64,000 bases of DNA from Candidatus Moraniibacteriota bacterium (GCA_016699795.1 CP065011.1:1011449-1075448); one strand, 5' to 3'; counted from the first letter of the stretch, positions 15,616 to 31,670 are shown. Numbers and translations are program-made. The notes: generated from the letters alone by a model not told the origin.

Positions 15616-16929
15616 ATGCGATACCAAAAAATAGGAATTTTTTCAGCTTTATGCATCCTCGTAATAATTACGTATTATCGTTGGTTTTCTTTTTCATGGT
15701 TTGGTCTTGGGGATTGGAATATATATTTTTCTGAAAATTTACGAGAGTTTTCACTACTTTCTTTATGGAATACAAGTTTAGGTTTTGGAGTTTTGGATGT
15801 GATCGTTTGGAAAATTCCTTATAGTCTCCTTATCTCCTTATTTGGATTTCTTGGTTTTGATTCAAATATTTCGGATAAATTTCTCATTCTGATTCCTTTG
15901 GCATTCTTTTCTTTATTTGCACCTTTTATCCTCTTGAAGAAAATTGTTCGATCAAATATTTCCGCGTTTATAGGAGCATTTATTTTTGCATATTCCAGTT
16001 ATTTTCTTGCTATCCATACGCATGGTCACCAACATCTTTCTATGGCAAGTGTATGGGGCGTATTCGCTCTTTATTTTTGTATACGTTTGGTAGAGGAGAG
16101 GCGGATAGAGTGGGCGGTGCTGGGGGGGATGATACTTGCGATTTCCGGATATTATGATTTTCGATTTGCCTATATTTTCTTTTTTATATGCGGTGGGTTT
16201 CTCTTGGTTTCGTGGGTGAAAGAGGTGAGAGGAGAAAATATGAAAGTAAAGAGCAGGGAGTCTTCTTCTCTCCCTTTGCTAAAAGGGAGTACCCGAGTCA
16301 TCGAGGGGGAGGGATTTGTATCTCAGATGGGGAAAATCCCCCTCAATCCCCCTTTTCCTAAGGGGGAGGAAGACGGAGGGGAAGGAGATTCGATCACAAT
16401 GACGGGGGAAAGAAAGAATGTATGGAATCTTTTTTGGATGAGTACGGTGTTTGTACTGGTATTTGCTGGACTCAATGTTTTTTGGATTTTACCTTTTGCT
16501 ACGGCAGGGGCTATGTCAGAAAATGCAGGAGTGGGACGAGATCTTTTTGGTAATGATTATTTCGAACTTCAAGAAGCACTCTTTCTCTCGCATCCTTTCT
16601 GGACAGGGTATGGAGTTGAGTGGATGTCCAATCAACCAACTCCATGGTGGCTTACTATTTTGGGAATCTTAGCTTTTGCAGGTTTCTGGGTAGGAAGAAA
16701 AAATCCATATGTAGTATTTTTCGCTCTCATTGCTCTCATCGGAATATTTTTGGGTAAACAAGTCGATCCTCCCTTTGGAAACTCGTATTACTGGCTCTAT
16801 GAGAATCTCCCGGGCTTCAATGCCTTTCGTGAAGCTTCCAAATTTTATGTACTCATTGCTCTGGGCTACTCCGTCGGCCTCGCCTCCCTCATCAACTGGC
16901 TTTTACCGAAAGAGGGAAGTGAAAAATAA
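15616..16929 (+). CDS. N-terminal (TM-domain) half of a third YfhO-like paralog, split from its C-terminal half at 30660-31670; carries an in-frame GC-rich insert
   Basis: It is multi-TM. Its end (NSYYWLYENLPGFNAFREASKFYVLIALGYSVGLASL) aligns with EYLYEKVPVLALFRTPDTKFGLPIILILSLIIGYF of paralog A and stops in the short cytoplasmic loop before the last N-domain TM. Confidence 0.6.
   Translation: MRYQKIGIFSALCILVIITYYRWFSFSWFGLGDWNIYFSENLREFSLLSLWNTSLGFGVLDVIVWKIPYSLLISLFGFLGFDSNISDKFLILIPLAFFSLFAPFILLKKIVRSNISAFIGAFIFAYSSYFLAIHTHGHQHLSMASVWGVFALYFCIRLVEERRIEWAVLGGMILAISGYYDFRFAYIFFFICGGFLLVSWVKEVRGENMKVKSRESSSLPLLKGSTRVIEGEGFVSQMGKIPLNPPFPKGEEDGGEGDSITMTGERKNVWNLFWMSTVFVLVFAGLNVFWILPFATAGAMSENAGVGRDLFGNDYFELQEALFLSHPFWTGYGVEWMSNQPTPWWLTILGILAFAGFWVGRKNPYVVFFALIALIGIFLGKQVDPPFGNSYYWLYENLPGFNAFREASKFYVLIALGYSVGLASLINWLLPKEGSEK
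16266..16385. repeat. GC-rich palindromic mini-element inserted in frame within CDS 15616-16929
   Basis: ctctccctttgctaaaagggagtacccgagtcatcgagggggagggatttgta plus ccccctt ttcctaa gggggagg. Copies of the same element occur at 16966-17020, 26170-26228 and, inverted, at 22871-22925. It encodes ..SSLPLLKGSTRVIEGEGFVSQMGKIPLNPPFPKGEEDGGEGDS. Confidence 0.7.
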
Positions 16930-17050
16930 AGAAGTTTAACAAAAAATTAAGAATGCAAAAATTCCTCTCTAGCTCTCCCTTTGCCAAAAGGGAGTACTCC
17001 TAAGGGGGAGGGATTTGTATAAATTTCAAGCTCTAAGAAAAATTGTTGAA
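16864..17050. repeat. master copy of a 187-bp segment (3' end of gene 15616-16929 plus downstream) duplicated at 26071-26257 and partially elsewhere in the island
   Basis: Near-identical string from ggctactccgtcggcctcgc to ctctaagaaaaattgttgaa at both positions. Confidence 0.8.
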
Positions 17051-17066
17051 TCTGCCTTTTCTTACT

Positions 17067-17095
17067 TTGACAAAATCTCAAACACTAGTTATATT
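17067..17095 (+). promoter_or_regulatory. sigma70-like promoter TTGACA-17-TATATT upstream of the copy-2 MKQLSTR gene
   Basis: Hexamers with a 17-nt spacer, 24 bp upstream of ATG 17119. Confidence 0.45.
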
Positions 17096-17118
17096 TCCTA
17101 TAATTAAGCATCAAATCT

Positions 17119-17838
17119 ATGAAACAACTTTCTACTCGAACCATCGCTATTATTACCCTTATAGCCATTGCCTTTCTAGCATTAGGAGTTTTTGTGATGC
17201 AAAAAGTTTACAACACACCTCTTCCTGTTGTAGAGAATGAAGTTGAGCAAAAAGAAAATCCGAAAACAAATGATGAAACCTTCATTACTGACGTTGATAT
17301 GAATGTAGAGAATTGGCAAACAAAAGAAACGGAATTTTTTACTATTAAATTTCCGAAGGAGTGGTATTTCTTTCAAACAAACTATGATACGATGGGATAT
17401 AACTCATACGTTATTACAAACAATCCAAATTTCGATATTAGTAAATATCCAGACATTAGTATTGGAGTGGGGAGGATCTATCCTTTGGATCTGATGAATG
17501 AAACAGAAATTGTAATTTCATCAAACTATCTTGGGGATGCTACTGCTAATTCAGGAACGTCTTTGGATTACATAGAATATATGATCAATAGTATGAGGGA
17601 ATACGTAGGTTTTACCGTTGCATGTCAATATATGTCGAGTATGGACAGTATCCCTCTTGCTACGTATTGCTCATTTACAGATGAGGATAATAAGCAAAGA
17701 GTTGGAACGTATTATGCTTCTTATCCAATACGTACGTTTGGATTCTCTGCTCGTGTGAAAAAGGAAAATAATATGGTTTTAGAAAAAATATTGGAGGGTA
17801 TTGTACAAAATTATTCTGTAACTGTTTCATATCGGTAG
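17119..17838 (+). CDS. MKQLSTR-family signal-anchored protein, copy 2
   Basis: N-terminal MKQLSTRTIAIITLIAIAFLALGVFVMQKVYNTPLPVVENEVEQKENPKTNDETF. The central block VDMNVENWQTKETEFFTIKFPKEWY..NNPNFDISKYPDI is shared with ORF 27474; the C-terminus is unique. Confidence 0.75.
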   Translation: MKQLSTRTIAIITLIAIAFLALGVFVMQKVYNTPLPVVENEVEQKENPKTNDETFITDVDMNVENWQTKETEFFTIKFPKEWYFFQTNYDTMGYNSYVITNNPNFDISKYPDISIGVGRIYPLDLMNETEIVISSNYLGDATANSGTSLDYIEYMINSMREYVGFTVACQYMSSMDSIPLATYCSFTDEDNKQRVGTYYASYPIRTFGFSARVKKENNMVLEKILEGIVQNYSVTVSYR

Positions 17839-17962
17839 GAAATTATTGGTTTTTCCGCTTCTTAATCACCTCATCTAAACATGATGGGGTTATCTATGAA
17901 ACGGTAATATCCGTTTCTCAAAAAACATTTGATCTTTAACAATTCGAAAGAGGACTTTCTCC

Positions 17963-18685
17963 ATGAAACTGTTAGCGCAAGGCGTATTGAGTGTATTCTT
18001 AGTATTGTCCAGTCTGGGTGCAGTCGCCGGAACGAATGAGTGCTACGGCTACACGTCTACAACGAATCATTTCCCATGCCTTTATCCAACTGGCAACTGC
18101 ACCTGGTGGGCAGCATATATGCGCCCCGATATTGCAGAAGTGATCACCGGAAGCGGATGGGATGGTGGAAATTGGATCAACAAGCTCAATGGAATGATTC
18201 CTGTTGGTTCCGTTCCTGGAGTTGGGGCAATCGTGGAGTTCGATGGGCACGTTGCCTTCGTAACGAACGTGTTGGATGGGGGTGCATTTCGTGTTTCGGA
18301 AATGGATGCTACTGGAAAATTGGGTAATGGTTTGCAATACGCCACCTACTACCCAGGTAGTAGTAATACCTATCATCGCAATACCGATCGCGGATCTGAT
18401 GTTAAAGGGAGTTGGATCCTCAAAGGTTTCATTTACGCTGAAGATCCCGCAATTATTCCTGGCAATCAATTCTCGATCCGTCATGTGGGAAATTATGGTT
18501 GGTATCCAGCATACAGCTCGTGCATTCATGCCGAGTCATGGTATGGATTTAATAATGATAAAAAGATCGTAAGGATCTATCGCTATTCCAACCACAACCC
18601 GTGTCAATGGATCTACGAAACACTTTATCCGAAAGAGGTCAGTTACAATGCACTCTTCGGAAATGCTAATGCGTGCTATCAATAA
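17963..18685 (+). CDS. secreted CHAP-domain peptidoglycan hydrolase (amidase/endopeptidase), copy 2
   Basis: Signal peptide. Catalytic Cys in GNCTWWAAYMRP and His in DGHVAFVTNV. About 65% aa identity to ORF 28304-29002. Confidence 0.8.
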   Translation: MKLLAQGVLSVFLVLSSLGAVAGTNECYGYTSTTNHFPCLYPTGNCTWWAAYMRPDIAEVITGSGWDGGNWINKLNGMIPVGSVPGVGAIVEFDGHVAFVTNVLDGGAFRVSEMDATGKLGNGLQYATYYPGSSNTYHRNTDRGSDVKGSWILKGFIYAEDPAIIPGNQFSIRHVGNYGWYPAYSSCIHAESWYGFNNDKKIVRIYRYSNHNPCQWIYETLYPKEVSYNALFGNANACYQ

Positions 18686-18717
18686 GACGCAAAACGACCA
18701 TTTGAGAGGTGCTAATC

Positions 18718-20022
18718 GTGAAAACGAAACGATTCTTTGAAGTAGTAATTACTTCCATTTTCCTCTTTGCTTTCGCAAGCGTTTACGCTTCCGATTGCGG
18801 AGAATTCGCAACTATCTCTGTTCCAAGTTCGGGCGGAGGATATGTGAGTGGAGGCGATGGCTACATCCCACCCCAAAATCCAACTCCCACAGACCCTGTC
18901 AATCTTACCCAAGATACTGACATTCTTGGTGCTGACGGCAATGAACTCTATGCTGGACGTGACTCAATCCTTTCTGGAATGAAAGTAAAAGTCCGCGTTG
19001 CAGTGCAAGCTGAAGGAGGGGATGCAGGAAACTGGAAAACGAGAAACGATGCCGACACTATAGACATCGCTTACTCCGTAAGTTCCAATGATGGTCCTTG
19101 GACTCAGTTTGATACTGGGTACATTACCATTTCTAAACTTGATGAGGGACAAACTATCACGGAAACGAAGGAATACACTATTCCAAATGGCATCTCTTCG
19201 ATTGCATTTCGCACAGAAACCGATTATCGAGATGAAGTCGAAGAATATGATGAAGGAGATAATACCAGTCGCGTAGAACGATTTGAGATTTCAAATCTCA
19301 AACCTGACTACAGCATCACTGATGTTTTCTTCTCTGATCCCAGTACAGGAGCCATATACCGAAATGGTGCAATACTCTTAGAAGATAGAGAGTGGTATCC
19401 CTATTGTGAGATAATGAGCACAGGAGAAATCAATGCTCCTATCAACGTAGAAGTTTCTCACCGTATGGATGGAACAGAAAGAGATACTGATACGCTAGGA
19501 ATAGATGATATTTCTTTGGGACAAACATATCGTGAAGTCGTCTGGAGCAAATGGAAACTGGGAAATACAGGAACACGTACCTATACGTGCTGTGTAGATT
19601 CCAAAGGTTGGCTTCCAGAACTCAATGAGAGCAATAATTGCAAGAGTGCACTCTTTACGATAGTTCCATGGAAACCTAGTATCACCATCACTGATCTCTG
19701 GGTAGACTATGATGGAAAAGTAGTTCGTAATGGTGGAACAGGGAGCAAAGGGAAACGTTATCATCCTAATGTTACCTTCACCAATACGGGAAACAAAACA
19801 ATGTCATGTGGTGCTGAAGCGAAGTACTACATCAATTCTAACTCCTATCGTGATCGTGATACTGTTGGTATTCTGGGAGTAGGAGGTATCGGGCACGAGA
19901 GAGTTGATAACGACAATATCAAACTTGGAGATGGAGGATGGAGATCCTATCGTGTTACTCTCCAATCTAGCTGTGGAGAGTTTCCTACAGTGGAAAGAAC
20001 GATGAGTTTCTATCTTCGATGA
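18718..20022 (+). CDS. secreted CARDB-like repeat protein, copy 2
   Basis: GTG start at 18718 after a GAGAGG RBS. Signal peptide KTKRFFEVVITSIFLFAFASVYA|SD. Motifs EYDEGDNTSRVERFEI and LPELNESNNC (E.NE.NN of CARDB). Near-identical to 29035-30339 and to the 3' 1.15 kb of 1318-3237. Confidence 0.6.
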   Translation: MKTKRFFEVVITSIFLFAFASVYASDCGEFATISVPSSGGGYVSGGDGYIPPQNPTPTDPVNLTQDTDILGADGNELYAGRDSILSGMKVKVRVAVQAEGGDAGNWKTRNDADTIDIAYSVSSNDGPWTQFDTGYITISKLDEGQTITETKEYTIPNGISSIAFRTETDYRDEVEEYDEGDNTSRVERFEISNLKPDYSITDVFFSDPSTGAIYRNGAILLEDREWYPYCEIMSTGEINAPINVEVSHRMDGTERDTDTLGIDDISLGQTYREVVWSKWKLGNTGTRTYTCCVDSKGWLPELNESNNCKSALFTIVPWKPSITITDLWVDYDGKVVRNGGTGSKGKRYHPNVTFTNTGNKTMSCGAEAKYYINSNSYRDRDTVGILGVGGIGHERVDNDNIKLGDGGWRSYRVTLQSSCGEFPTVERTMSFYLR

Positions 20023-20084
20023 TTCTCAAGAGACTTCCCGCAAGGACGCGGGAAATACTGAAATGATTTATTATGATAGATATA

Positions 20085-20111
20085 CCAGCTTTGGAAGGGG
20101 CTGGTTTTTTT
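20085..20111 (+). terminator. Rho-independent terminator (CCAGCtttggaaggGGCTGG + T8)
   Basis: Stem-loop plus T-run directly after stop 20022. Confidence 0.65.
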
Positions 20112-20688
20112 TGTTTTTTTTCGCATCATTACTCATCGAACCGGCTTTTACCTCCCTCCCATCATCCGAAAGAGGGAAGGAAATAAAAAATGCTTTATAG
20201 CGGTATTTTTCACAAACACTTGACGTAGAAAGGTTATATATATCCATAAAGCATGTATATGCTTTATGGACTAAAGGTTATAAATTATATAACATCTAGT
20301 GCATGATATTAAAAAAGCTTTATAGAAGCATTTCTTATAAACATATGAAAAATGCTAATATAATAGCATATTTCATGCAGGAGATGTCTTTTAGGAGGAA
20401 ATTTAGCAAAGAGATCGTGCTCTCCTAAAATTTGGATTACATTCCAAAAATTTACTTTTACACTTATTATAGCTTATATAAAGCGTTATATTTATAAAAA
20501 AATTTCAGATAATCTCAAAAAGAAAATATTATTTTTATGACCTTGGTATTCACAATGCAATTCTTATTGATTTTTTTTGAAAATTCTCGATGATATACTA
20601 CAAAGCTTTCATTTGGGAACTCTTAGAAAACGCAAGCAACCTCGGAACTGATACCTATATGAAATGGACAGAGGATAGCGATGCTTAA

Positions 20689-21609
20689 CTAAGTAGTTCC
20701 TAGCTCCCGAAGTATACACACTTCGGGAGTTTTTAATTTTTCAAGAATCTCTTTTGCAGGATAGGCGCAGTTTAATTGTTTCGTGTTGGATATTTCTTTG
20801 ATAAAAGCAATACAACTATCAGGCAATAATAATAGAGTCTTGTCCATATCACTCAGGATGCTTAATGCCTTATTGCGAACGTCCGGTGCTCCGTATTGTA
20901 GCAAAGATACGAGAGTTTTTGTAAGTAAAATTTTCATTTCTTGGGACATGCCTGTGATACAAGGAATGAGCTGTCGTAGTAAAATATTCGTACAATCTCT
21001 ATAAAGTTTTTTTCTAAGAAGATATAAAATATTTTCTAATAGAACAGGATCTTTATAGATCCATTGTAGCGCTATTCCAGCATCAATAGATCCGTTCTCC
21101 ACAAGATTGATAAGATCGCTAGTTTTATCAGTACACAATTTTTGCACATCCTGTTCTATTGATCGTAGTATAGGATCTTTTGAGAAAAAAATAGTATCGT
21201 CCCGTTCTAATCCAAGATTACCTCCATTGGCATATAGACTATCTGTGCGTCTTTGATGTGTATTTATTATAGCAATTACTTCTCTAAACCATTTTGGAGT
21301 TTGTAGGTGAGATTTTCTGGATAGGTCTGGATTATTACTCTTTTTGGAGTACAAATCAATCGTCAAAACAGTTTCTAATGTATTGTTATGTTGATATAGA
21401 GGATTCATTATTTCTGCATTATATCCTCGAACGTTGTAGTATTCCCATATTTCTTTCTCAGCACGGTTATATTCTGTAGTAGAATATTTTGATCCGATAA
21501 TAAGACTACTCAGATCCATTGCAAAAGTTATAGGACAAGGATATTTATTTTTTTGATGATGCCATACTTCAATATCTAATAGCACATATTCAAGCTTAAT
21601 ATTTTGCAT
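20689..21609 (-). CDS. hypothetical protein (306 aa) in an AT-rich part of the island
   Basis: Long ORF of uncertain function. The N-terminal LLDIEVWHH is loosely like a DEDD exonuclease motif I, and the C-terminal helical repeats look HEAT-like. Both are weak impressions only. Confidence 0.4.
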   Translation of the reverse strand: MQNIKLEYVLLDIEVWHHQKNKYPCPITFAMDLSSLIIGSKYSTTEYNRAEKEIWEYYNVRGYNAEIMNPLYQHNNTLETVLTIDLYSKKSNNPDLSRKSHLQTPKWFREVIAIINTHQRRTDSLYANGGNLGLERDDTIFFSKDPILRSIEQDVQKLCTDKTSDLINLVENGSIDAGIALQWIYKDPVLLENILYLLRKKLYRDCTNILLRQLIPCITGMSQEMKILLTKTLVSLLQYGAPDVRNKALSILSDMDKTLLLLPDSCIAFIKEISNTKQLNCAYPAKEILEKLKTPEVCILRELGTT

Positions 21610-21689
21610 ATTCCACTTTTAACAATTGATATCTCTAGTATAGAACATAGAGGTTACTGTCGGATAGTATCTCTTATATTCTCAACAAT

Positions 21690-21960
21690 GAAGCACTCTT
21701 TCTCTCGCATCCTTTCTGGATGGACAGGGTATGGAGTACAGCGGATGTCCAATCAACCGACTCCTTGGTGGCTTACTATTTTGGGAATCTTAGCTTTTGC
21801 GGATTTCTGGGTAGGAGTTTTCCCTCGTCATCGCGAGTCCGCCGACTGGCGGAGAAGCGATCCAGAAGGAAAGGAAAATGCATGGATTGCCACATCGCAG
21901 ATTCCTCGCAATGACACTCCCTTCCTCATCAACTGGCTTTTACCAAAAGAAAGAATGAAA
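21690..21960 (+). pseudogene. degenerate partial copy of the 3' part of gene 15616-16929, interrupted by a GC-rich hairpin insert
   Basis: Encodes ..EALFLSHPFWTGYGVQRMSNQPTPWWLTILGILAFADFWVG.., matching 16570-16695. A foreign about 110-bp insert follows (tccgccgactggcgga hairpin), then ..ctcatcaactggcttttacc. Confidence 0.7.
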
Positions 21961-21984
21961 TGAAAAAAGAAAAAGTATAAAAAA

Positions 21985-22013
21985 GAATAAAAACCACCTC
22001 TTCGGTGGTTTTT
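21985..22013. terminator. bidirectional Rho-independent terminator (AAAACCACCtcttcGGTGGTTTTT)
   Basis: Perfect 9-bp stem flanked by A-run and T-run, immediately 3' of the minus-strand gene 22018-22281. Confidence 0.7.
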
Positions 22014-22017
22014 ATAT

Positions 22018-22281: not shown

Positions 22282-22870
22282 AGTTACATTATACTAAAGA
22301 AGTAACTTTTTGATAAGAAAGACCGTCTTCAATGCCTTTCGTGAAGCTTCCAAATTCTAACTCTGGGGGCTACTCCGTCGGCCTCACCTCCCTCATCAAC
22401 TGGCTTTTACCGAAAGAGGGGAGAAAATAAAGCCATGGTGACGGAGAATAAAATAAAACTTAAATATAATTTGACTTATGTTTAAGTTTGACTTAATGCA
22501 TACTATAAAATAAGTAATTGAAAAAATATTCATACAATGCAAATTTAGATATATCTATTTATACATACAATGCTCAAAAAGTTATAAAAAGACACCTCGA
22601 GTAACTTTTGTTTTACTCTCAGATGGACCCTCTCCCGCTACGGCGGGAACGGAGGAAAAGGAAAGAATAAAAGAGAGGAAGAAGGGAATAGCGTTAAGAA
22701 TAGTGTATTATATTGACCGAAATAGTATGTATTTACGTCAATATGCTAACCAAAACATAAAGAGAAAATGTAAACAAAATCCACGAAATAATATGATTTC
22801 GTGGATAGACAATCCTTGAAATTGACATATTTCGTGGATTCAGTCTTATGAATGGTATGAAATCAAGAAA

Positions 22871-22925
22871 ATCCCTCCCCCTCGATGACTCGAGTACTCC
22901 CTTTTGGCAAAGGGAGAGAAGAAGT
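22871..22925. repeat. inverted copy of the GC-rich palindromic mini-element
   Basis: Reverse complement equals cttctctccctttgccaaaagggagtactcgagtcatcgagggggaggga (compare 16266-16320). Confidence 0.7.
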
Positions 22926-24453: not shown

Positions 24454-24699
24454 TGTATTGCAAAAACGTTTACATTTTTACTCTCGTGGGAATACTTCTG
24501 GGCAAACAAGTGTCAGAACCTTTCTCCACACTTTACTCCTGGCTCTATGAAAACCTCCCATCATCCGAAAGAGGGAAGGAAATAAAAAAATGCTTTATAG
24601 CGGTATTTTTCACAAACACTTGACGTAGAAAGGTTATATATATTAAAGTATATATATGTTTTATGAACTAAAGGTTATAAATTATATAACATCTAGTGT

Positions 24700-25281
24700 A
24701 TGATATTAAAAAAAAGCTTTATAGATTCTTTGTATCTTTCGCCTCAATCCGTCTTTTCTAGTAAAGAAATAGCTATTCTTACAAAAGAAGCCGATCCTCT
24801 TTCTCTCAAGTCAAAACTTGCCTATTATGTGCGTAGAGGAAAACTCGTTCGTTTGCGAAAAGGTTTTTATGCAAAACCAGAAAAATACGAAAAAAAAGAA
24901 TTTGCCGTTCGTCTTTATACACCATCATATATCAGTTTTGAAACAGTTCTTGCGCAAGAAGGGATTATTTTTCAATATTACGCAACCATATTTGTTGCTA
25001 GTTATGTGTCTCGGGAGATACAGCTTTCCGATGCTACTTTTCGATATAGAAAAGTAAAGGATGCTATTCTTTTGAATAGAAAAGGTATCGTAGATAAAGA
25101 TGGGTTTTTTGAGGCAAGTAAAGAAAGAGCTTTTCTAGACATGCTTTATAGTAATCCAAAATATTATTTTGATAATTTGCGATCGATCGATTGGGACGCG
25201 TGTTTTGATCTTGTTTCTTTGTATCAAAAAAAATCTCTCGAAAAAACACTTAAAGAATATTATAACTTGTATGCTAAATAG
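24700..25281 (+). CDS. abiEi: AbiEi-like antitoxin/transcriptional regulator (type IV TA, abortive infection)
   Basis: About 190 aa. wHTH-like N-terminus with the KLAYYVRRGKLVRLRKGFYA (RGvY) motif typical of AbiEi_4. Directly upstream of, and overlapping, the AbiEii gene. Confidence 0.55.
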   Translation: MILKKSFIDSLYLSPQSVFSSKEIAILTKEADPLSLKSKLAYYVRRGKLVRLRKGFYAKPEKYEKKEFAVRLYTPSYISFETVLAQEGIIFQYYATIFVASYVSREIQLSDATFRYRKVKDAILLNRKGIVDKDGFFEASKERAFLDMLYSNPKYYFDNLRSIDWDACFDLVSLYQKKSLEKTLKEYYNLYAK

Positions 25282-25978
25282 AGAAAAACACGAGCTTGTA
25301 ATGACGCAAATACTCAAAGATGTGTATGCAGATACTTTTATAGGACCACTTCTGGGATTTAAAGGTGGCACCGCGGCATATTTATTTTATGGATTAGAAA
25401 GATTTTCTGTCGACTTGGATTTTGATCTTTTGGAGGTTTCGGAAGAGAAAAGAACTATCGTATTTGATCGCATTTCTCAGATTCTTCTTCAATACGGAAC
25501 GATACGAGATTCACAACAAAAAGAAAATACTATTTTTTTACTTCTTTCTTATGGAGCAGGAGAATATGGCATAAAAGTTGAAGTAAATACCAGAAAGGTC
25601 GGATCTTTGTATGAAATGAAACAGTATTTTGGCATTCCAATGCTTGTTATGAAAAAAGAATCGATGTTTGCAAGTAAATTAATAGCGCTCATAGAAAGAA
25701 AAAAATTTGCGGCTCGAGATATGTATGATGTATATTATTTTCTAAAAAATAATTGGGATATTGATATTAATGTTTTGAATAAGTATGGAAAGAAAAACAT
25801 TGTTTCTTTTTTGGATGAATGTATTCATTTTGTAGAAAATACCCCGGATAACTCTTTACTGGGAGGATTGGGAGAACTTGTCGAGGAAACGAAAAAAGAC
25901 TTTATTCGAAATAAAATGAAGATGGAAATAGTTTTCTTTCTTTCCATTCGGAAAGAACAATACAAAAAGAGATACTAA
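25271..25978 (+). CDS. abiEii: AbiEii/AbiGii-family nucleotidyltransferase toxin
   Basis: FKGGTAAYLFYGLERFSVDLDFDL matches the DUF1814/AbiEii signature (KGGTAL..yg..R.S.DlD). The start is either ATG 25271 (overlapping the AbiEi stop) or 25301. Confidence 0.7.
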   Translation: MLNREKHELVMTQILKDVYADTFIGPLLGFKGGTAAYLFYGLERFSVDLDFDLLEVSEEKRTIVFDRISQILLQYGTIRDSQQKENTIFLLLSYGAGEYGIKVEVNTRKVGSLYEMKQYFGIPMLVMKKESMFASKLIALIERKKFAARDMYDVYYFLKNNWDIDINVLNKYGKKNIVSFLDECIHFVENTPDNSLLGGLGELVEETKKDFIRNKMKMEIVFFLSIRKEQYKKRY

Positions 25979-26070
25979 CTTTTTTAACAAAGAAAATTAT
26001 TTGGATTTTATAAGTTGAAAGAAAGAAATGGAGGTTAGTAATAGTTCCTTTATGTACTCATTACTCTCCG

Positions 26071-26257
26071 GCTACTCCGTCGGCCTCGCATCCCTCATCA
26101 ACTGGCTTTTACCGAAAGAGGGAAGTGAAAAATAAAGAAGTTTAACAAAAAATTAAGAATGCAAAAATTCCTCTCTAGCTCTCCCTTTGCCAAAAGGGAG
26201 TACTCCTAAGGGGGAGGGATTTGTATAAATTTCAAGCTCTAAGAAAAATTGTTGAAC
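26071..26257. repeat. second copy of the 187-bp 3'-end/downstream segment of gene 15616-16929 (includes one GC-rich mini-element)
   Basis: Near-identical to 16864-17050. Confidence 0.8.
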
Positions 26258-26326
26258 TTAGTATCGAAAAACTTGACGTAAAGCCATATTTTAGGTATAT
26301 TTTTTGTACATTATTTTAAATACATT

Positions 26327-27022
26327 ATGAAACAGCTTTCTACTCGAACCATATCAATTATTTCTCTTATAGCCATTGCCATTTTGGCATTAGGAATTTT
26401 TGCAATGCAAAGAGTTTACAACACACCTCTTCCTGTTGTGGAGGATGAAGTTGAACAAAAAGAGAATCTGAAAACAAATGATGATAATAACTCTAAAAAA
26501 GAGCAACAAAATATAGATGAAAATATCATGGCTATGGTAGAAACATTTGATGTTAGTGATTGGCAATTATATTCAAATAATGAACTTGGATTTAGTGTGA
26601 AACTTCCACCAACTTTTGATCTTAATGATCCCAGGATTTATGAAGATGAAAAATTCTTTGTAAAAAGTGTTTGTTTTCCAGATAATCAAGATATGCAGCT
26701 ATATGCCAATGAAGGAGCAGAATCAAGGGGTCCAAGATTATTATGTTTTAAGAAAGGAGCATTGGGAAATGTGGATGACCTTATGACTAAATTTAAGGAT
26801 AGTAGTAATCAATTTGTAAAATATAATATTCTTATTTCTCATGATATTTCTGCAAAACTTTATTTTGGCTTTGGGAGTGGAATAATCTTTGAGTCTAATA
26901 AATATAGATTGACAATCGAAGACTCTTACACCTTCAAAAGCGCTACCATTTTTAACAATGTTTCAAATTTGTATTACCTTGGCATGATCAAAACATTTGT
27001 TTTATTTGATGAGAAAAAGTAA
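26327..27022 (+). CDS. MKQLSTR-family signal-anchored protein, copy 3a
   Basis: N-terminal MKQLSTRTISIISLIAIAILALGIFAMQRVYNTPLPVVEDEVEQKENLKTNDD; unique C-terminal domain; conserved promoter/leader upstream. Confidence 0.75.
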   Translation: MKQLSTRTISIISLIAIAILALGIFAMQRVYNTPLPVVEDEVEQKENLKTNDDNNSKKEQQNIDENIMAMVETFDVSDWQLYSNNELGFSVKLPPTFDLNDPRIYEDEKFFVKSVCFPDNQDMQLYANEGAESRGPRLLCFKKGALGNVDDLMTKFKDSSNQFVKYNILISHDISAKLYFGFGSGIIFESNKYRLTIEDSYTFKSATIFNNVSNLYYLGMIKTFVLFDEKK

Positions 27023-27127
27023 TAATTCATTTTCGGAATAATGCTCCAACCAAAGAGAAATCCTTCCCTTTGGTTGCCGGCAATGTTTCGGTATTCTGAC
27101 CTTTGACAAATAGAGGAGTCTATTCGA

Positions 27128-27316
27128 ATGAATATTCGATTGTTTCTCGTACTATGCTTTTTTACCACATCTTTCTCAGCATTCTCTGCTGAATCGATTC
27201 GTACGGTAACGGGATTCTATTATCCCATTGGAATGACAAAAGATACGATTGTAAAACAGGAAATACTTGATACGATAGCTAAGAATATTATTTTAAAGAA
27301 TAATTTTCCAGAGTAA
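27128..27316 (+). CDS. 62-aa ORF with its own signal peptide whose C-terminus duplicates the last 30 aa of ORF 27474-28193; a small secreted protein or a cassette remnant
   Basis: ..IGMTKDTIVKQEILDTIAKNIILKNNFPE* matches ..IGMTKDTVVKQEILDTIAKNIILKNNFPE* of the next gene. The same NNFPE*-plus-leader junction recurs at about 390-404. Confidence 0.35.
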   Translation: MNIRLFLVLCFFTTSFSAFSAESIRTVTGFYYPIGMTKDTIVKQEILDTIAKNIILKNNFPE

Positions 27317-27473
27317 ATCTTTCTTTGATTATCTCATTTGGATGTAATGGTTAGTTGATAGGCTACCGACGATGACCCATGGACTCAGTTTGACACTGGA
27401 TATATGACTATCGAAAAACTTGACATAAAGCCATATTTTAGGTATATTTTTTGTACATTATTTTAAATACATT

Positions 27474-28193
27474 ATGAAACAGCTTTCCACTCGAACTATA
27501 GCCATTATTTCCCTTATCGCCATTGCCATTTTGGCATTAGGAGTCTTTGCAATACAAAGAGCTTACAATACCCCACTTCCTGTTGTGGAGAATAAAGTTG
27601 AACAAAAAGAGAATCCGAAAACAAATGATAAAATCTTCATTGCCGATGTTGATATGAATATTGAAAATTGGCAAACGAAAGAAACGAAATTCTTTACGAT
27701 TAAATTTCCAAAAGAGTGGTATTGGTTGGAATCTGATTTTGAAAAGATAGGATATCATTCACAAGCAATCACCAATAATCCAAATTTTGATATAAACAAG
27801 TATCCTGACATTGGAATGTTTACTGGATATGATTATCCAATGATACTTAAAGAAAATAGTGAGGTTATTATAACGTTTGGAGGTTTTCCCACATCCAATT
27901 CTGGCACACCAAAGGATAGCTCTGATTATATTAAGAAATCCGTTTTAGATAAAAATTCTTCCGCTCAGTGCAAGGAAATTCAGATTACTAATAACAATGA
28001 TAGAAATGTAACTCTTTTTATTACCTGTTCTTTTATGGATATATATGGGTACAGCATAAAGAAGTATAGCGCTATTAATAACGAAATTTCTATTACAATA
28101 ACCATTGGAATGACAAAAGATACGGTTGTAAAACAGGAAATACTTGATACGATAGCTAAGAATATTATTTTAAAGAATAATTTTCCAGAGTAG
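27474..28193 (+). CDS. MKQLSTR-family signal-anchored protein, copy 3b
   Basis: N-terminal MKQLSTRTIAIISLIAIAILALGVFAIQRAYNTPLPVVENKVEQKENPKTNDKIF; shares a central block with ORF 17119. Confidence 0.75.
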   Translation: MKQLSTRTIAIISLIAIAILALGVFAIQRAYNTPLPVVENKVEQKENPKTNDKIFIADVDMNIENWQTKETKFFTIKFPKEWYWLESDFEKIGYHSQAITNNPNFDINKYPDIGMFTGYDYPMILKENSEVIITFGGFPTSNSGTPKDSSDYIKKSVLDKNSSAQCKEIQITNNNDRNVTLFITCSFMDIYGYSIKKYSAINNEISITITIGMTKDTVVKQEILDTIAKNIILKNNFPE

Positions 28194-28303
28194 ACCTTTT
28201 CTCGATTACCTTATTTGAATATGATTGGGTAATCTATGAAGCGGTAATATCCGTTTCTCAAAAAGCAATTGTTTTTTGACAATTTGAAAGAGGAGTTTTT
28301 TCC

Positions 28304-29002
28304 ATGAACATGCTAATGAAGACTGTGCTATACACACTTCTTTTCTTATCTAATATGGGAGTATATGCCGGAACAGATGAATGCTATGGATATAAATCTA
28401 CAACGAGTCATTTTGCGTGTGGTGAATATGGCAATTGTGTATGGTGGGCTGCATATATGCGTCCGGATATTGCTAGGGTTATAACGGGAAGTGGTTGGAA
28501 TGGTGGAGATTGGTACGCTAAACTTAAGGGAACGATTCCAGTTGGTTCCGTTCCGGAAGTTGGTGCAATTGTGGAATTTGAAGGCCACGTTGCGTTTGTT
28601 AAGGATATACTGGACGAAGGAGCATTCGCTGTATCAGAAATGGATTATTATGGGCAGTTTGGTTCGGGCGTACAATATGCCACATACACTCCCAATGGTG
28701 ATGGGACCTATCAACGAAATAATGAATCAAAGAAATGGACCCTCAACGGTTTCATTTATGCTGAAGATCCGGCAGTTATCCCTGGCAACACTTTTACGGT
28801 ACGTCGGGTAGGTAACTATGCTTGGCATCCTGCAGACAGTTCGTGTATCAATGCAAAAAATTGGTACGGACTCAATAGCGATCGAAAAATCGTACGTACG
28901 TACGACGATAGCCAAGTATGCCAATGGATCTACGAAACACTCTACCCACAAGAGGTAAGCTATAATGCACTCTTCGGAAATGCTAATGCGTGCTATCAAT
29001 AA
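28304..29002 (+). CDS. secreted CHAP-domain peptidoglycan hydrolase, copy 3
   Basis: Catalytic Cys in GNCVWWAAYMRP and His in EGHVAFVKDI. Signal peptide. AGAGGAG RBS. Confidence 0.8.
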   Translation: MNMLMKTVLYTLLFLSNMGVYAGTDECYGYKSTTSHFACGEYGNCVWWAAYMRPDIARVITGSGWNGGDWYAKLKGTIPVGSVPEVGAIVEFEGHVAFVKDILDEGAFAVSEMDYYGQFGSGVQYATYTPNGDGTYQRNNESKKWTLNGFIYAEDPAVIPGNTFTVRRVGNYAWHPADSSCINAKNWYGLNSDRKIVRTYDDSQVCQWIYETLYPQEVSYNALFGNANACYQ

Positions 29003-29034
29003 GACGCAAAACGACCATTTGAGAGGTGCTAATC

Positions 29035-30339
29035 GTGAAAACGAAACGATTCTTTGAAGTAGTAATTACTTCCATTTTCCTCTTTGCTTTCGCAAGCGTT
29101 TACGCTTCCGATTGCGGAGAATTCGCAACTATCTCTGTTCCAAGTTCGGGCGGAGGATATGTGAGTGGAGGCGATGGCTACATCCCACCCCAAAATCCAA
29201 CTCCCACAGACCCTGTCAATCTTACCCAAGATACTGACATTCTTGGTGCTGACGGCAATGAACTCTATGCTGGACGTGACTCAATCCTTTCTGGAATGAA
29301 AGTAAAAGTCCGCGTTGCAGTGCAAGCTGAAGGAGGGGATGCAGGAAACTGGAAAACGAGAAACGATGCCGACACTATAGACATCGCTTACTCCGTAAGT
29401 TCCAATGATGGTCCTTGGACTCAGTTTGATACTGGGTACATTACCATTTCTAAACTTGATGAAGGAGTTACTATTACAGAAACGAAAGAATACACTATTC
29501 CAAATGGCATCTCTTCGATTGCATTTCGCACAGAAACCGATTATCGAGATGAAGTCGAAGAATATGATGAAGGAGATAATACCAGTCGCGTAGAACGATT
29601 TGAGATTTCAAATCTCAAACCTGACTACAGCATCACTGATGTTTTCTTCTCTGATCCCAGTACAGGAGCCATATACCGAAATGGTGCAATACTCTTAGAA
29701 GATAGAGAGTGGTATCCCTATTGTGAGATAATGAGCACAGGAGAAATCAATGCTCCTATCAACGTAGAAGTTTCTCACCGTATGGATGGAACAGAAAGAG
29801 ATACTGATACGCTAGGAATAGATGATATTTCTTTGGGACAAACATATCGTGAAGTCGTCTGGAGCAAATGGAAACTGGGAAATACAGGAACACGTACCTA
29901 TACGTGCTGTGTAGATTCCAAAGGTTGGCTTCCAGAACTCAATGAGAGCAATAATTGCAAGAGTGCACTCTTTACGATAGTTCCATGGAAACCTAGTATC
30001 ACCATCACTGATCTCTGGGTAGACTATGATGGAAAAGTAGTTCGTAATGGTGGAACAGGGAGCAAAGGGAAACGTTATCATCCTAATGTTACCTTCACCA
30101 ATACGGGAAACAAAACAATGTCGTGTGGTGCTGAAGCAAAGTACTACATTAATTCTAACTCCTATAGAGATAGAGACGGGATCGATCCTCTTTCCGTGAA
30201 TCAATCCGGACATGAGAGAGTCGAGAACGACAATATCAAACTTGGAGATGGAGGATGGAGATCATATCGTGTTACTATCCAATCTAGCTGTGGAGAGTTT
30301 CCTACAGTGGAAAGGACGATGAGTTTTTATCTTCGATGA
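29035..30339 (+). CDS. secreted CARDB-like repeat protein, copy 3
   Basis: Identical to copy 2 except for small patches (EGVTITE versus EGQTITE; a C-terminal 35-aa patch). Confidence 0.6.
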   Translation: MKTKRFFEVVITSIFLFAFASVYASDCGEFATISVPSSGGGYVSGGDGYIPPQNPTPTDPVNLTQDTDILGADGNELYAGRDSILSGMKVKVRVAVQAEGGDAGNWKTRNDADTIDIAYSVSSNDGPWTQFDTGYITISKLDEGVTITETKEYTIPNGISSIAFRTETDYRDEVEEYDEGDNTSRVERFEISNLKPDYSITDVFFSDPSTGAIYRNGAILLEDREWYPYCEIMSTGEINAPINVEVSHRMDGTERDTDTLGIDDISLGQTYREVVWSKWKLGNTGTRTYTCCVDSKGWLPELNESNNCKSALFTIVPWKPSITITDLWVDYDGKVVRNGGTGSKGKRYHPNVTFTNTGNKTMSCGAEAKYYINSNSYRDRDGIDPLSVNQSGHERVENDNIKLGDGGWRSYRVTIQSSCGEFPTVERTMSFYLR

Positions 30340-30392
30340 TTCTCGAGAGACTTCCCGCAAGGACGCGGGAAATACTGAAATGAATGAAGATG

Positions 30393-30428
30393 AACCAGTT
30401 TTGAAAAAGGCTGGTTTTTTTGTTTTTT
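30393..30428 (+). terminator. Rho-independent terminator (AACCAG..CTGGTT + T-run)
   Basis: Same structure as 3291-3322. Confidence 0.7.
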
Positions 30429-30659
30429 TTCGCATCATTACTCATCAACTGGCTTTTACCTCCCTCCCATCATCCGAAAGAAGAAATAAAGTAACGCCAT
30501 GGCGATCCAGAATTTCTCCCCCTGAGAAAAAAAGGGAGCTTTTTTCTTAAAGGAAAGAATTATACGAGAAAAGGGAAATATTCATGGTTACATGAAGGGT
30601 GTAAAAAATAGTAACCAATTGGAGTAACAAAATTTCTTCTTGTGTGTTAATATGGCTAT

Positions 30660-31670
30660 ATGAAAAATTTTCTGAAAAAGCAAATGAGAAAAAAATCGTT
30701 TCGCTTCATCGTGATAGGTTTCATTGCGGGACTGGCTTTATGGAATGCAAATTCCCTTGTTACAGGGAAGATTGGGACTATGTTTGTGCCACGAGAAATT
30801 TCTAAAGACTATTATGTTTATAGAGAATTCATAAATTCTCAAGATGAATATTTTCGAGTTCTTGGTATTCCCGTTCCTTCTAAATGGATGGTTTACACGA
30901 ATAAACATCCAAAAATGAGTTTGGTAGATCTTACTCGTGAAGCCTGGCAAGAATTCGCTATTCCTCACATCGATGGACATCCAGAACGAAATGAACGTTG
31001 GTTATTAAGCCCCCTTGAGCAAGATTTTTCTGAGAGACTTTTGGATGTTTCCGCCATTCGTTATATTGCCATTCCAAGAGATGATGCGAAAAATGCAGAT
31101 GATTTTTTTGGTGCTTATGGAGAACGAAAAGTATTTCTTGCACATTTAGACGCTATGCCTTTTTTGCATCGTATAGATGCTAAAACAGGGGAGATTATTA
31201 TCTATGAGAACCCAGATGCACGACCACATATATATCTTACCAATGAAAAAGAGAGTATTGAAAAAGAGATCCCTTATACTCCCACTGATTTTCAATTTAT
31301 TTCCCCATCTCAGTACAATATAAAGAATATTACATTGGCAGAAAATTTAGAAACATATCTCAACTTTAGCGAAAGCTATCATCCAGATTGGAAGATTCGC
31401 GTAGGGGATTTCTCTTGGTGGGATTCTCTTTGGGATAAACAGTACTTCCTTTCCGATGAATACCATATAAAGAATGATGCGGGTCTTAATTCTTTTATTC
31501 TACCAGAAGAAGTTTTGAAAAGTGAAAAATCTCTTACATTATTTTTTCGTCCACAAGCACATCTTTATTTGGGTTTAATCTTTTCAAGTTCCTTATTTTT
31601 TATTTGTATTGGATATTTACTATGGGTAAGTTTTCGATTTTTAAAACTTCGGAAAAAACCTAAAAAATAA
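30660..31670 (+). CDS. C-terminal half (one TM + extracytoplasmic domain + C-terminal TM anchor) of the split YfhO-like paralog
   Basis: It starts with a TM helix (FRFIVIGFIAGLALW) and the ..MFVPREI.. motif aligning to RIVVIPEEY / YIVNIPSEY of paralogs A and B. The C-terminal HPDWKIRVGDFSWW..LTLFFRPQAHLYLGLIFSSSLFFICIGYLLW matches the paralog C-termini. Confidence 0.6.
   Translation: MKNFLKKQMRKKSFRFIVIGFIAGLALWNANSLVTGKIGTMFVPREISKDYYVYREFINSQDEYFRVLGIPVPSKWMVYTNKHPKMSLVDLTREAWQEFAIPHIDGHPERNERWLLSPLEQDFSERLLDVSAIRYIAIPRDDAKNADDFFGAYGERKVFLAHLDAMPFLHRIDAKTGEIIIYENPDARPHIYLTNEKESIEKEIPYTPTDFQFISPSQYNIKNITLAENLETYLNFSESYHPDWKIRVGDFSWWDSLWDKQYFLSDEYHIKNDAGLNSFILPEEVLKSEKSLTLFFRPQAHLYLGLIFSSSLFFICIGYLLWVSFRFLKLRKKPKK

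What the first reader, a model, noticed from the sequence alone, without database searches (positions are those of the whole stretch)
15616..31670. A YfhO-like membrane glycan-transferase gene is split into two intact ORFs by about 13.7 kb of accessory DNA
ORF 15616-16929 aligns with the N-terminal TM domain of the two upstream full-length paralogs (725 and 758 aa), up to the penultimate N-domain TM. ORF 30660-31670 aligns with the remainder: last TM, extracytoplasmic domain and C-terminal anchor. The break falls in the short cytoplasmic loop (..INWLLPKEGSEK* / MKNFLKKQMRKKSFR..), which aligns to the RKNK loop in paralog A. Everything between the halves is accessory: cassettes, AbiE, ATPase. 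Either an island inserted into the gene and both halves stayed open (a possible split protein), or the locus is a recombination hotspot.
Basis: seen in the sequence. Interest (0 to 1): 0.8.

Follow-up and report, generated by a model that had tools for sequence, protein, structure and literature searches.

The report
Split glycosyltransferase gene hosting cassette hotspot
A membrane sugar-transferase gene of a tiny "candidate phyla radiation" bacterium is divided into two separately encoded halves, a split inherited by a whole clade, and the gap between the halves collects and swaps defence, toxin-antitoxin and surface-protein gene cassettes.

Summary
ORFs 15616-16929 (437 aa) and 30660-31670 (336 aa) are collinear halves of a ~710-aa membrane glycosyltransferase, broken in a short basic loop, with 13.7 kb of accessory DNA between them. 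The joined sequence folds confidently (pLDDT 87, pTM 0.88) as a GT-C enzyme. The Pfam YfhO model does not match.

This is not a recent one-off insertion. Thirteen clusters of stand-alone C-halves (48-100% identical) form one clade with 100% bootstrap support. Stand-alone N-halves end at the same residue in other metagenomes. Synonymous sites are saturated while pN is 0.2-0.3, so both halves are maintained genes. The wider family is almost entirely fused.

The gap is a cassette hotspot. Its cargo differs between genomes: AbiE, PDC-S01 ATPase, type I restriction, VapBC/HicAB, DUF3800 and CHAP/CARDB secreted proteins. Every unit starts with a partial copy of the N-half 3' end; the window has seven copies. 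Cassettes are 95-98% identical between genomes whose C-halves are ~70% identical, and the 3' part of the N-half has itself been exchanged.

The best explanation is homology-anchored cassette exchange without an integrase. This is a new variant of known hotspot and cassette-array logic.

The parts
11169..13346 (+). Full-length paralog A (725 aa), same GT-C-like family, fused form
   Evidence: 22% identity to the concatenated halves; the C-domain aligns at E 4e-11
13333..15609 (+). Full-length paralog B (758 aa), fused form
15616..16929 (+). N-half: the TM core of the GT-C enzyme (437 aa). It carries invariant D33 (GDW motif), R405 and K409, and ends ...SLINWLLPKEGSEK*
16249..16398 (+). In-frame insert derived from MITE-like hairpin repeats (aa 212-261). 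The model is disordered here, and relatives carry different inserts in the same loop.
16059..16929 (+). Horizontally exchanged 3' segment of the N-half. It is 90-100% nt identical to L001 and 95-99% to L005, whereas the 5' 450 nt are ~50-65% identical. GC3 jumps from 0.22-0.28 to 0.30-0.52.
17119..20022 (+). Cassette unit 1: membrane-anchored 'MKQLSTRT' protein (17119-17838), CHAP protein (17963-18685), CARDB protein (18709-20022). A terminator follows at 20084-20105.
20132..20186 (+). Anchor b: partial copy of the N-half 3' end, ending at its stop codon (long variant carrying a 15-nt segment)
20187..20326 (+). Truncated duplicate of the AbiE promoter region plus the first 26 nt of abiEi (94% identical to 24554-24725)
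20689..21609 (-). 306-aa ORF of unknown function, with no Pfam or PADLOC hit
21690..21963 (+). Anchor c1: degenerate copy of the last ~330 nt of the N-half, interrupted by a small repeat element
22327..22430 (+). Anchor c2: copy of the N-half 3' end
23206..24453 (+). AAA_14/DUF4143 ATPase, PADLOC candidate defence system PDC-S01. The cassette is 95% nt identical to L011 2470-4009.
24480..24585 (+). Anchor d: diverged, internally deleted copy of the N-half 3' end
24700..25978 (+). AbiEi (24700-25281) and AbiEii (ORF from 25169, likely start ~25271, to 25978): a type IV toxin-antitoxin / abortive-infection pair
26049..26135 (+). Anchor e: copy of the N-half 3' end (97%), followed by the same 187-nt spacer as after the real N-half
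26327..30339 (+). Cassette unit 6: two 'MKQLSTRT' proteins (26327-27022, 27474-28193), CHAP (28304-29002), CARDB (29026-30339). A terminator follows at 30392-30417.
30441..30494 (+). Anchor f: copy of the N-half 3' end (long variant). The sequence after its stop resembles the one after the N-half stop in L001.
30495..30659 (+). Spacer upstream of the C-half. Its transcription signals are not established.
30660..31670 (+). C-half (336 aa): one TM, an extracytoplasmic domain and a C-terminal TM anchor. Identical to NCBI protein IPN70_04855 of a Candidatus Moraniibacteriota MAG.
31804..32949 (-). PD-(D/E)XK nuclease gene: the conserved right-hand neighbour, syntenic with L011-L014

Best explanation
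The window comes from a Candidatus Moraniibacteriota genome. In a clade of these Patescibacteria, one of several tandem GT-C-fold membrane glycosyltransferase genes has long existed as two genes.

The two halves:
- The N-half encodes the catalytic TM core.
- The C-half encodes the next TM, the extracytoplasmic domain and a C-terminal anchor.
- Both halves are maintained by selection (shown).
- They probably assemble non-covalently into one enzyme (inferred).

The gap:
- The gap between the halves serves as a cassette hotspot (shown).
- Each cargo unit is led by a copy of the N-half 3' end, an 'anchor' of 45-450 nt that always ends at the N-half stop codon (shown).

Proposed mechanism (inferred):
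- The anchors give every cassette homology to the resident N-half.
- A cassette can therefore loop out between two anchors and enter another genome by RecA-type homologous recombination in the N-half 3' region.
- Each arrival displaces earlier cassettes toward the C-half.
- Repeated rounds produced the present seven-unit, 13.7-kb array.
- The same process replaced the 3' third of this genome's N-half with foreign, higher-GC sequence.
- No dedicated integrase is needed.
For: Split and fold:
- Fused homologs cover 95-100% of the concatenation.
- The break lies in the loop.
- The AF2 model has pLDDT 87.4 and pTM 0.88. Foldseek matches AftD, STT3, PglB, AglB, DPY19, AftA and ArnT.

The split is clade-wide:
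- Stand-alone C-halves P0122-P0133.
- Stand-alone N-halves P0002-4, P0008, P0030 and P0042 stop at the same residue.
- Both halves sit on one contig in L006, L016 and L019.
- NJ tree: the split clade has 100% bootstrap. The only fused member, P0001, is sister to split P0124 at 99%.
- The wider family is fused. Nearly all of the best 150 hits in the exhaustive HMMER search are fused, and 64 of 66 GTDB loci read through the site.

Selection:
- C-halves: pS 0.62-0.98 against pN 0.21-0.32.
- N-halves: dN/dS 0.13-0.55.

Hotspot with variable cargo.

Anchors:
- Seven copies in the window, all + strand, all ending at the stop codon (0.02 expected by chance).
- Anchors also occur in L004, L011, L016, L017 and L087, and L086 carries an anchor ORF.
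- They match their own genome's N-half, 100% over 437 nt in L016 and over 115 nt in L004.

Cassette transfer between genomes:
- Window and L011 share modules at 95-98% nt while their C-halves are 70% nt identical.
- AbiEii of L006 and L011 is 91% aa identical (AbiEi 90%) while their C-halves are 61%.

Mosaic N-half with variable breakpoints at ~16,060 and ~16,450.

No recombinase domain in any island ORF tested or annotated. No tRNA in the window. No phage contig carries the anchor.
Against: - No expression or protein data. That the halves assemble is inferred only from a model of an artificial fusion.
- The C-half has no clear promoter or Shine-Dalgarno match in this window.
- In L015 a stand-alone C-half sits next to priA with no N-half within 10 kb. 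So the C-half may act alone, or the partner lies elsewhere.
- The recombination mechanism is inferred from sequence patterns alone. A recombinase encoded elsewhere and acting in trans would leave the same architecture.
- Most comparison contigs are short and end inside the islands, so integrases could have been missed.
- Repeats of 97-99% identity in short-read MAGs carry some risk of mis-assembly in the order of the cassettes.
Confidence: 0.62

Rival explanations
1. Recent single insertion. A 13.7-kb island landed in an intact gene in this genome, and both halves are still open only because little time has passed.
For: - The island has a different composition from its flanks: GC 0.42-0.50 in CHAP/CARDB against 0.25-0.30 in the neighbouring glycan genes.
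- Fused homologs exist.
Against: - The same break point occurs in at least 10 other lineages with different cargo.
- The split clade is monophyletic with 100% bootstrap.
- Synonymous sites between stand-alone halves are saturated, yet the ORFs are intact and pN is low.
- Each C-half has its own start codon.
Confidence: 0.04
2. Integrase-mediated islands. The anchors are attL/attR-type repeats left by mobile elements that integrate site-specifically into the 3' end of the N-half gene, using a recombinase encoded on the element or elsewhere in the genome. This would work like an integron or a tycheposon.
For: - Direct repeats of a gene's 3' end at every unit boundary, all with the same 3' limit, are the classical signature of tandem site-specific integration.
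- Cassettes move between diverged genomes.
Against: - No integrase, transposase or recombinase domain in any island ORF examined, here or in about 12 related loci.
- Anchor length varies from 45 to 450 nt. Anchor sequence tracks each genome's own N-half rather than a universal core.
- Mosaic breakpoints in the N-half lie 470-870 nt upstream of the stop, at different positions.
- No phage contig carries the anchor.
Confidence: 0.2
3. Decaying pseudogene. The two ORFs are remnants of a disrupted paralog, made redundant by paralogs A and B, with no joint function.
For: - Two full-length paralogs lie immediately upstream.
- The N-half carries a 50-aa repeat-derived insert.
- There is no recognisable promoter before the C-half.
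Against: - Both halves are conserved as intact ORFs across a clade with saturated dS and low pN.
- Residues invariant across the family are kept in both halves: D33, P386, R405, K409 in the N-half and F673, W681, H706 in the C-half.
- The fold prediction is confident.
- Paralogs A and B are only 21-22% identical to the concatenation, so they are unlikely to be redundant.
Confidence: 0.06
4. Assembly or binning artefact. The repeated cassettes caused a chimeric join, so the halves are not really 13.7 kb apart, or not in one genome.
For: - Repeats of 97-99% identity and more than 1 kb lie inside the island and at window 2092-3324.
- Composition along the region is heterogeneous.
Against: - Independent assemblies reproduce the key junctions: N-half to MKQ cassette in L005 at 94-99%, and CARDB end to anchor plus ATPase cassette to anchor in L011-L013.
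- C-half to PD-(D/E)XK synteny is conserved.
- Other contigs carry both halves flanking an island.
Confidence: 0.05

Closest known systems
Core-gene-flanked defence hotspots (for example the core defence hotspots of Pseudomonas aeruginosa and the integration hotspots of E. coli; from my own knowledge)
   Same: A fixed chromosomal position, bounded by conserved genes, holds different defence or toxin-antitoxin systems in different strains. Its contents are exchanged horizontally.
   Different: - The two bounding 'core genes' here are the two halves of one enzyme.
- Every cargo unit keeps a partial copy of the left flank, giving a cassette array rather than a simple replaceable island.
- The host is a reduced-genome Patescibacterium.
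Orphan C-terminal toxin/immunity modules downstream of rhs and cdiA genes (from my own knowledge)
   Same: An array of displaced units, each starting with a fragment of the conserved part of the main gene. That fragment supplies homology for recombination, and new units arrive by transfer and push older ones downstream. The logic matches anchors a-f.
   Different: - Here the fragment is not fused in frame to the cargo. It ends at the gene's stop codon, and the cargo genes are independent, with their own promoters.
- The cargo is defence, toxin-antitoxin and secreted proteins, not alternative C-termini of the same protein.
Integron cassette arrays (from my own knowledge)
   Same: A unidirectional array of mostly one- to three-gene cassettes separated by a recurring recombination-competent repeat. 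Cassettes are shared between genomes.
   Different: - No IntI-type integrase next to the array.
- The repeat is a coding-gene 3' fragment of variable length, not an attC hairpin.
- The cassettes carry promoters and terminators.
Tandem genomic-island arrays flanked by partial tRNA or gene 3'-end repeats (for example tycheposons; from my own knowledge)
   Same: Successive insertions at the 3' end of one gene leave partial target copies between the units.
   Different: - No tRNA is involved.
- No tyrosine recombinase was found.
- The repeats match each genome's own gene, up to 100% over 437 nt.
Single-chain GT-C glycosyltransferases (AftD, STT3/PglB/AglB, ArnT, YfhO)
   Same: The concatenated protein has the GT-C fold: a TM core with a conserved Asp near the N-terminus plus an extracytoplasmic C-terminal domain.
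   Different: - It is encoded as two polypeptides, broken between the TM core and the last TM plus soluble domain.
- There is no HMM-level match to Pfam YfhO or to any solved chain.

Membership tests
GT-C fold glycosyltransferase superfamily | Multi-spanning TM core with the GT-C architecture, followed by an extracytoplasmic domain | tested here: met
   AF2 model pLDDT 87.4, pTM 0.88. Foldseek against the PDB: AftD 6w98 at E 5e-9, then STT3, AglB, PglB, DPY19, AftA and ArnT, all with probability 0.97 or higher. TM-scores are modest (0.32-0.47), so this is fold-level similarity only.
GT-C fold glycosyltransferase superfamily | Conserved acidic catalytic residue in the first extracytoplasmic loop | tested here: inconclusive
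   D33 (GDW) is invariant in 43 sequences. It lies after the first TM helix in the model. Its position in the active site was not checked on coordinates.
GT-C fold glycosyltransferase superfamily | Transfer of sugar from a polyprenyl-phosphate-linked donor | not testable with these tools
   The genomic context fits: GT2, GDP-mannose dehydratase, GDP-fucose synthase and methyltransferase genes at 5302-11152. There are no biochemical data.
YfhO family (Pfam PF09586) | Match to the family HMM at or near the gathering score | tested here: not met
   No YfhO hit even at E<=10 for the N-half, the C-half, paralogs A and B, P0001, P0020 or P0117. NCBIfam gives only a far sub-threshold MmpA match: 17-31 bits against a cut-off of 210. 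One distant homolog (P0117) is named 'YfhO family protein' by NCBI.
AbiE type IV toxin-antitoxin / abortive infection system | Adjacent AbiEi antitoxin and AbiEii nucleotidyltransferase genes | tested here: met
   PADLOC AbiEi 1.3e-60 and AbiEii 8.6e-65. Pfam AbiEii 1e-19. The genes overlap at 25169-25281.
PDC-S01 candidate defence system (PADLOC) | Single AAA_14 + DUF4143 ATPase matching the PDC-S01 model | tested here: met
   PDLC04787 at 3.5e-116 over nearly the full length. Pfam AAA_14 1.7e-35 and DUF4143 1.1e-23.
Integron | IntI tyrosine recombinase with attI next to the cassette array | tested here: not met
   No recombinase domain in any ORF of 15.6-32.9 kb that was scanned. ORFs elsewhere in the window were not all scanned.
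Integron | attC imperfect-palindrome sites between cassettes | not tested
   The repeats between units are copies of a coding 3' end. No attC model was run.
Integrase-borne genomic island at a gene 3' end | Direct repeats of the target 3' end flanking each element | tested here: met
   Seven copies in the window, and further copies in L004, L011, L016, L017 and L087; L086 carries an anchor ORF.
Integrase-borne genomic island at a gene 3' end | Element-encoded integrase next to one att site | tested here: not met
   None in the window island or in the called genes of about 12 related islands. Many of those contigs are incomplete.

The most novel reading that the evidence does not exclude
The N-half 3' anchors may be the recombination sites of a cassette-capture platform specific to these Patescibacteria, a functional analogue of an integron. 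It would run on host homologous recombination, or on an unlinked recombinase acting in trans. Cassettes would circularise between anchors, travel by DNA uptake, and reinsert at the end of the N-half gene. The split glycosyltransferase locus would then be a dedicated store of defence, toxin-antitoxin and host-interaction genes. Each arrival could also change how the C-half, and therefore surface glycosylation, is expressed.
Probability: 0.3. Interest if true: 0.75.

Novelty: new variant of a known kind. Interest (0 to 1): 0.6.

Why it matters
Patescibacteria have very small genomes. How they acquire and keep defence and host-interaction genes is poorly understood.

This locus offers three things:
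- A concrete, recurrent acquisition site with a readable history: seven anchored units here, and different sets in relatives. It also suggests an integrase-free route for cassette exchange that long-read metagenomes could test.
- A natural, long-maintained split of a GT-C glycosyltransferase between its TM core and its extracytoplasmic module. That is a useful natural experiment for how these enzymes assemble, and a possible design point for engineering them.
- A practical warning for annotation. Pipelines will call these halves, and the short anchor ORFs, as unrelated hypothetical proteins.

Tried and rejected
- Pfam and NCBIfam on both halves, the paralogs and fused homologs gave no YfhO hit, or any other significant family.
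- A profile of the family against PDB sequences found nothing.
- The afdb50 fold library was unavailable.
- A GTDB species-representative scan with the C-half alignment found nothing. A rescan with the N-3' alignment gave 66 loci, all of them more distant fused genes at 55% identity or less. These served only as background.
- A viral-contig scan for the anchor found none.
- Rfam and tRNA scans of the window found none.
- I considered that AbiE was the original, vertically inherited splitting insert. I rejected this because the AbiE modules are of at least three divergent types and are incongruent with the halves. Window against L006 is ~25-28% identical. L006 against L011 AbiEii is 91% identical while their C-halves are 61%.
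- I considered that fused P0001 represents the ancestral uninterrupted state. I rejected this as less parsimonious. P0001 is nested in the split clade next to split P0124/L019, and its junction is an 82-codon linker built partly from a repeat also present in its own variable loop.
- Two literature searches (CPR + defence island + hotspot; AbiE + Patescibacteria) found no description of this locus.
- The 336-aa ORF in L086 looked like a C-half by length, but tblastn shows it is not one.
Full report
OBSERVATION

The two ORFs are present as described: 15616-16929 (437 aa) and 30660-31670 (336 aa). They are separated by 13,730 nt.

Against the two upstream full-length paralogs (725 and 758 aa), the concatenated halves align collinearly. 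The match is significant for the C-half (E 4e-11 and 4e-9) and weak for the N-half. Database relatives settle the point. Many ~700-730-aa Patescibacteria proteins cover 95-100% of the concatenation.

In a 43-sequence alignment the break lies in the short, basic loop between the last helix of the N-domain and the next TM. That interval is 9-16 residues in nearly all fused homologs (33 in one, 82 in P0001). The K/R-rich loop and the K/R-rich C-terminus fit a cytoplasmic location by the positive-inside rule. This is my inference.

The C-half is identical to NCBI protein IPN70_04855 of a Candidatus Moraniibacteriota MAG, on a 1.19-Mb contig.

WHAT THE PROTEIN IS

Pfam gives no YfhO match for either half, the paralogs or fused homologs, even at E<=10. 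NCBIfam gives only a far sub-threshold MmpA match. A family profile finds no solved chain by sequence.

AlphaFold2 of the concatenation gives one confident model, with pLDDT 87.4 and pTM 0.88. Low confidence is confined to residues 212-261 and the junction at about 430-450. Foldseek places the model in the GT-C fold. The best match is AftD at E 5e-9, followed by STT3, AglB, PglB, DPY19, AftA and ArnT.

D33 (GDW), P386, R405 and K409 in the N-half are invariant across the family. So are F673, W681 and H706 in the C-half.

The gene sits at the end of a glycan-synthesis cluster: Nudix, GT2, GDP-mannose dehydratase, GDP-fucose synthase, further GTs, a methyltransferase, then paralogs A and B. 'GT-C membrane glycosyltransferase' is therefore supported. 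'YfhO family' is not.

THE SPLIT IS OLD AND CLADE-WIDE

Stand-alone C-halves form 13 clusters, including this one. They are 330-413 aa long and 48-100% identical to the window's.

Stand-alone N-halves of 434-530 aa stop at the same residue...(V/I)(E/N)WLLP.. followed by a stop.

Both halves lie on one contig, flanking an island, in three other loci:
- L006/7/8: N | AbiEi | AbiEii | C.
- L016: N | anchor | ParA-like + DUF4325 | anchor | AAA_14 ATPase | C.
- L019: N | AbiEi | AbiEii | C.

Other contigs show one half next to cargo:
- L004: DUF3800 and AbiE.
- L001: an ATP-grasp-like ORF, judged from its sequence by eye and not tested.
- L005: MKQ and CARDB.
- L009: AbiEii.
- L010: type I HsdR, an ATPase, and T5orf172-like and HD proteins. 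I named these from the translated ORFs by eye and did not test them.
- L011-13: AbiE and two ATPases.
- L087: a PIN toxin and HicAB.

The genomes range from 32% to 60% GC.

In an NJ tree of C-domains, the 13 stand-alone sequences plus one fused protein (P0001) form a clade in 100% of 300 bootstraps. P0001 is sister to the split P0124 in 99%.

Outside this clade the family is fused. In an exhaustive HMMER search, nearly all of the best 150 representatives are ~700-730 aa or longer, with the C-domain at about 380-710. In GTDB genomes, 64 of 66 loci read on for at least 290 codons past the split site.

Between stand-alone C-halves, synonymous differences are saturated (pS 0.62-0.98) while pN is 0.21-0.32. 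N-halves give dN/dS of 0.13-0.55. Both halves are therefore maintained genes. That they work together as one enzyme is inferred, not shown.

THE ONE FUSED CLADE MEMBER

L003 (P0001, 811 aa) and L019 are 85-89% nt identical on both sides of the site. Where L019 has 1.7 kb (N stop, AbiEi, AbiEii, C start), L003 has 246 nt that stay in frame. This 82-codon linker contains a 35-nt repeat also present in the protein's own variable loop. Because P0001 is nested in the split clade, I read it as a secondary re-fusion after loss of the island.

ANATOMY OF THE 13.7 KB

The last part of the N-half recurs seven times, always on the + strand and always ending at the N-half stop codon. The stop positions are 16929 (the gene itself), 20186, 21963, 22430, 24585, 26135 and 30494. 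The 20-nt core CTCATCAACTGGCTTTTACC occurs five times exactly, against 0.02 expected by chance.

The copies have variable 5' limits, from about 45 to about 330 nt. They divide the island into units:
1. MKQ, CHAP and CARDB, then a terminator.
2. A truncated AbiE promoter stub and a 306-aa unknown ORF on the minus strand.
3. A short unit with a terminator.
4. The PDC-S01 ATPase.
5. AbiEi and AbiEii.
6. MKQ, MKQ, CHAP and CARDB, then a terminator.
7. A spacer, then the C-half.

These rest. The sequence after each stop falls into three classes that travel with their cargo: MKQ-type, AbiE-type and C-half/L001-type.

The same punctuation by N-3' fragments is seen in L004, L011, L016, L017 and L087, and L086 carries an anchor ORF next to AbiE. 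Further anchor ORFs exist in the protein database. Anchors match their own genome's N-half, at 100% over 437 nt in L016 and 100% over 115 nt in L004.

EVIDENCE FOR EXCHANGE BETWEEN GENOMES

- Window and L011 share the CARDB end plus anchor (98%), unit 3 (96%) and the ATPase cassette (95%). Their C-halves are only 70% nt identical.
- AbiEii of L006 and L011 is 91% aa identical (AbiEi 90%), against 61% for their C-halves. The window's AbiE is a different type, about 25-28% identical to L006 and 45% to L019.
- The window's N-half is a mosaic. Against L001 and L005 its first ~450 nt are ~50-65% identical. From ~16,060 (L001) or ~16,450 (L005) onward it is 90-100% identical. With L005 the high identity continues through the stop codon into the MKQ cassette.
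- GC3 rises from 0.22-0.28 to 0.30-0.52 at the same place.

MECHANISM

Shown:
- An old split.
- Purifying selection on both halves.
- A variable island.
- Anchors at every unit boundary.
- Near-identical cassettes in diverged genomes.
- A mosaic N-half.

Inferred:
- Each cassette carries homology to the resident N-half.
- Cassettes can therefore excise between two anchors and integrate, Campbell-type or by double crossover, through general homologous recombination in the N-half 3' region.
- The newest unit ends up next to the N-half, and older units are displaced toward the C-half.

Four observations favour homologous recombination over a site-specific recombinase. Anchor lengths vary. Anchors match each genome's own gene rather than a universal core. 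Mosaic breakpoints are scattered. No recombinase domain appears in any island examined. A recombinase acting in trans cannot be excluded.

RIVALS

- Recent one-off insertion: contradicted by the clade-wide split.
- Pseudogene remnants: contradicted by the conservation of both halves.
- Integrase-mediated islands: possible, but nothing found here supports it.
- Assembly artefact: unlikely, because independent assemblies reproduce the junctions.

COMPARISON WITH KNOWN SYSTEMS (my own knowledge unless a call is cited)

- The locus behaves like the core-gene-flanked defence hotspots of Proteobacteria.
- Its array logic is closest to the rhs/cdiA orphan modules. In those, displaced units each begin with a fragment of the main gene.
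- It resembles integrons and tRNA-fragment-flanked island arrays in layout. It lacks their recombinase and their att/attC sites as far as tested.
- I know of no GT-C enzyme described as naturally split between the TM core and the extracytoplasmic module. Two literature searches found no description of this locus.

VERDICT

The feature is a new variant of known kinds: a hotspot or cassette array combined with a split gene. It is of moderate to good interest, mainly for Patescibacteria genome dynamics and GT-C architecture.

LIMITS

- All evidence is computational.
- Many comparison contigs are short.
- The trees are NJ trees.
- Expression of the halves and their assembly remain untested.

Noticed in passing
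window 366-3324: A second MKQ gene (565-1212) and a fused CHAP-CARDB gene (1270-3237) lie on the far side of the glycan-synthesis cluster. Positions 2092-3324 are 99.4% identical to 29194-30425. These are direct repeats about 27 kb apart, so recombination between them could delete or circularise the whole glycan cluster plus the island.
   Followed up: partly
window 3392-4644: A DUF3800 gene (3693-4280) is flanked by ~168-nt direct repeats (3392-3559 and 4483-4644, 89% identical). It looks like another small cassette. DUF3800 is also cargo in the L004 island.
   Followed up: partly
window 16268-16292, 16973-16997, 22894-22918 (-), 26179-26203: A MITE-like hairpin repeat (CTCTCCCTTTGCNAAAAGGGAGTAC) has four exact copies. 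One lies in frame inside the N-half (aa 212-261, disordered in the model). Relatives carry different in-frame repeat-derived inserts in the same loop, and P0030 has a second one. This resembles the in-frame palindromic elements of Rickettsia (from my own knowledge).
   Followed up: partly
window 59878-60403: A tandem duplication of a 265-nt unit (98.9% identical).
   Followed up: no
window 48787-48819: A 33-nt near-perfect palindrome (97% self-complementary).
   Followed up: no
L015 10001-11017 (GCA_018401135.1, JAGYLL010000009.1): A stand-alone C-half lies directly next to priA, with no N-half within 10 kb upstream. It is followed by the conserved 505-aa and 693-aa genes. Either the halves can be unlinked, or the C-half can act alone.
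   Followed up: partly
L003 11179-11424: The only fused clade member joins its halves through an 82-codon in-frame linker. Part of the linker is a 35-nt repeat also found at L003 10621-10655. The original C-half start codon (M in ..ARGMIRWLRY..) is still present.
   Followed up: yes
L009 ~440-480 and L010 ~8690-8730: The high-GC relatives share a conserved motif upstream of the C-half, TTCAAATC(G/A)CGGGCGATATGGGGTATGATTCGG. It looks like a promoter (TTCAAA-N17-TATGAT). No equivalent is obvious in the window.
   Followed up: no
L006 1-2600: Upstream of the glycan cluster in L006 there is another AAA_14 ATPase followed by fragmented abiEi-like ORFs, 71% nt identical to window 24659-25389. As in the window, accessory cassettes flank the glycan cluster on both sides.
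   Followed up: no
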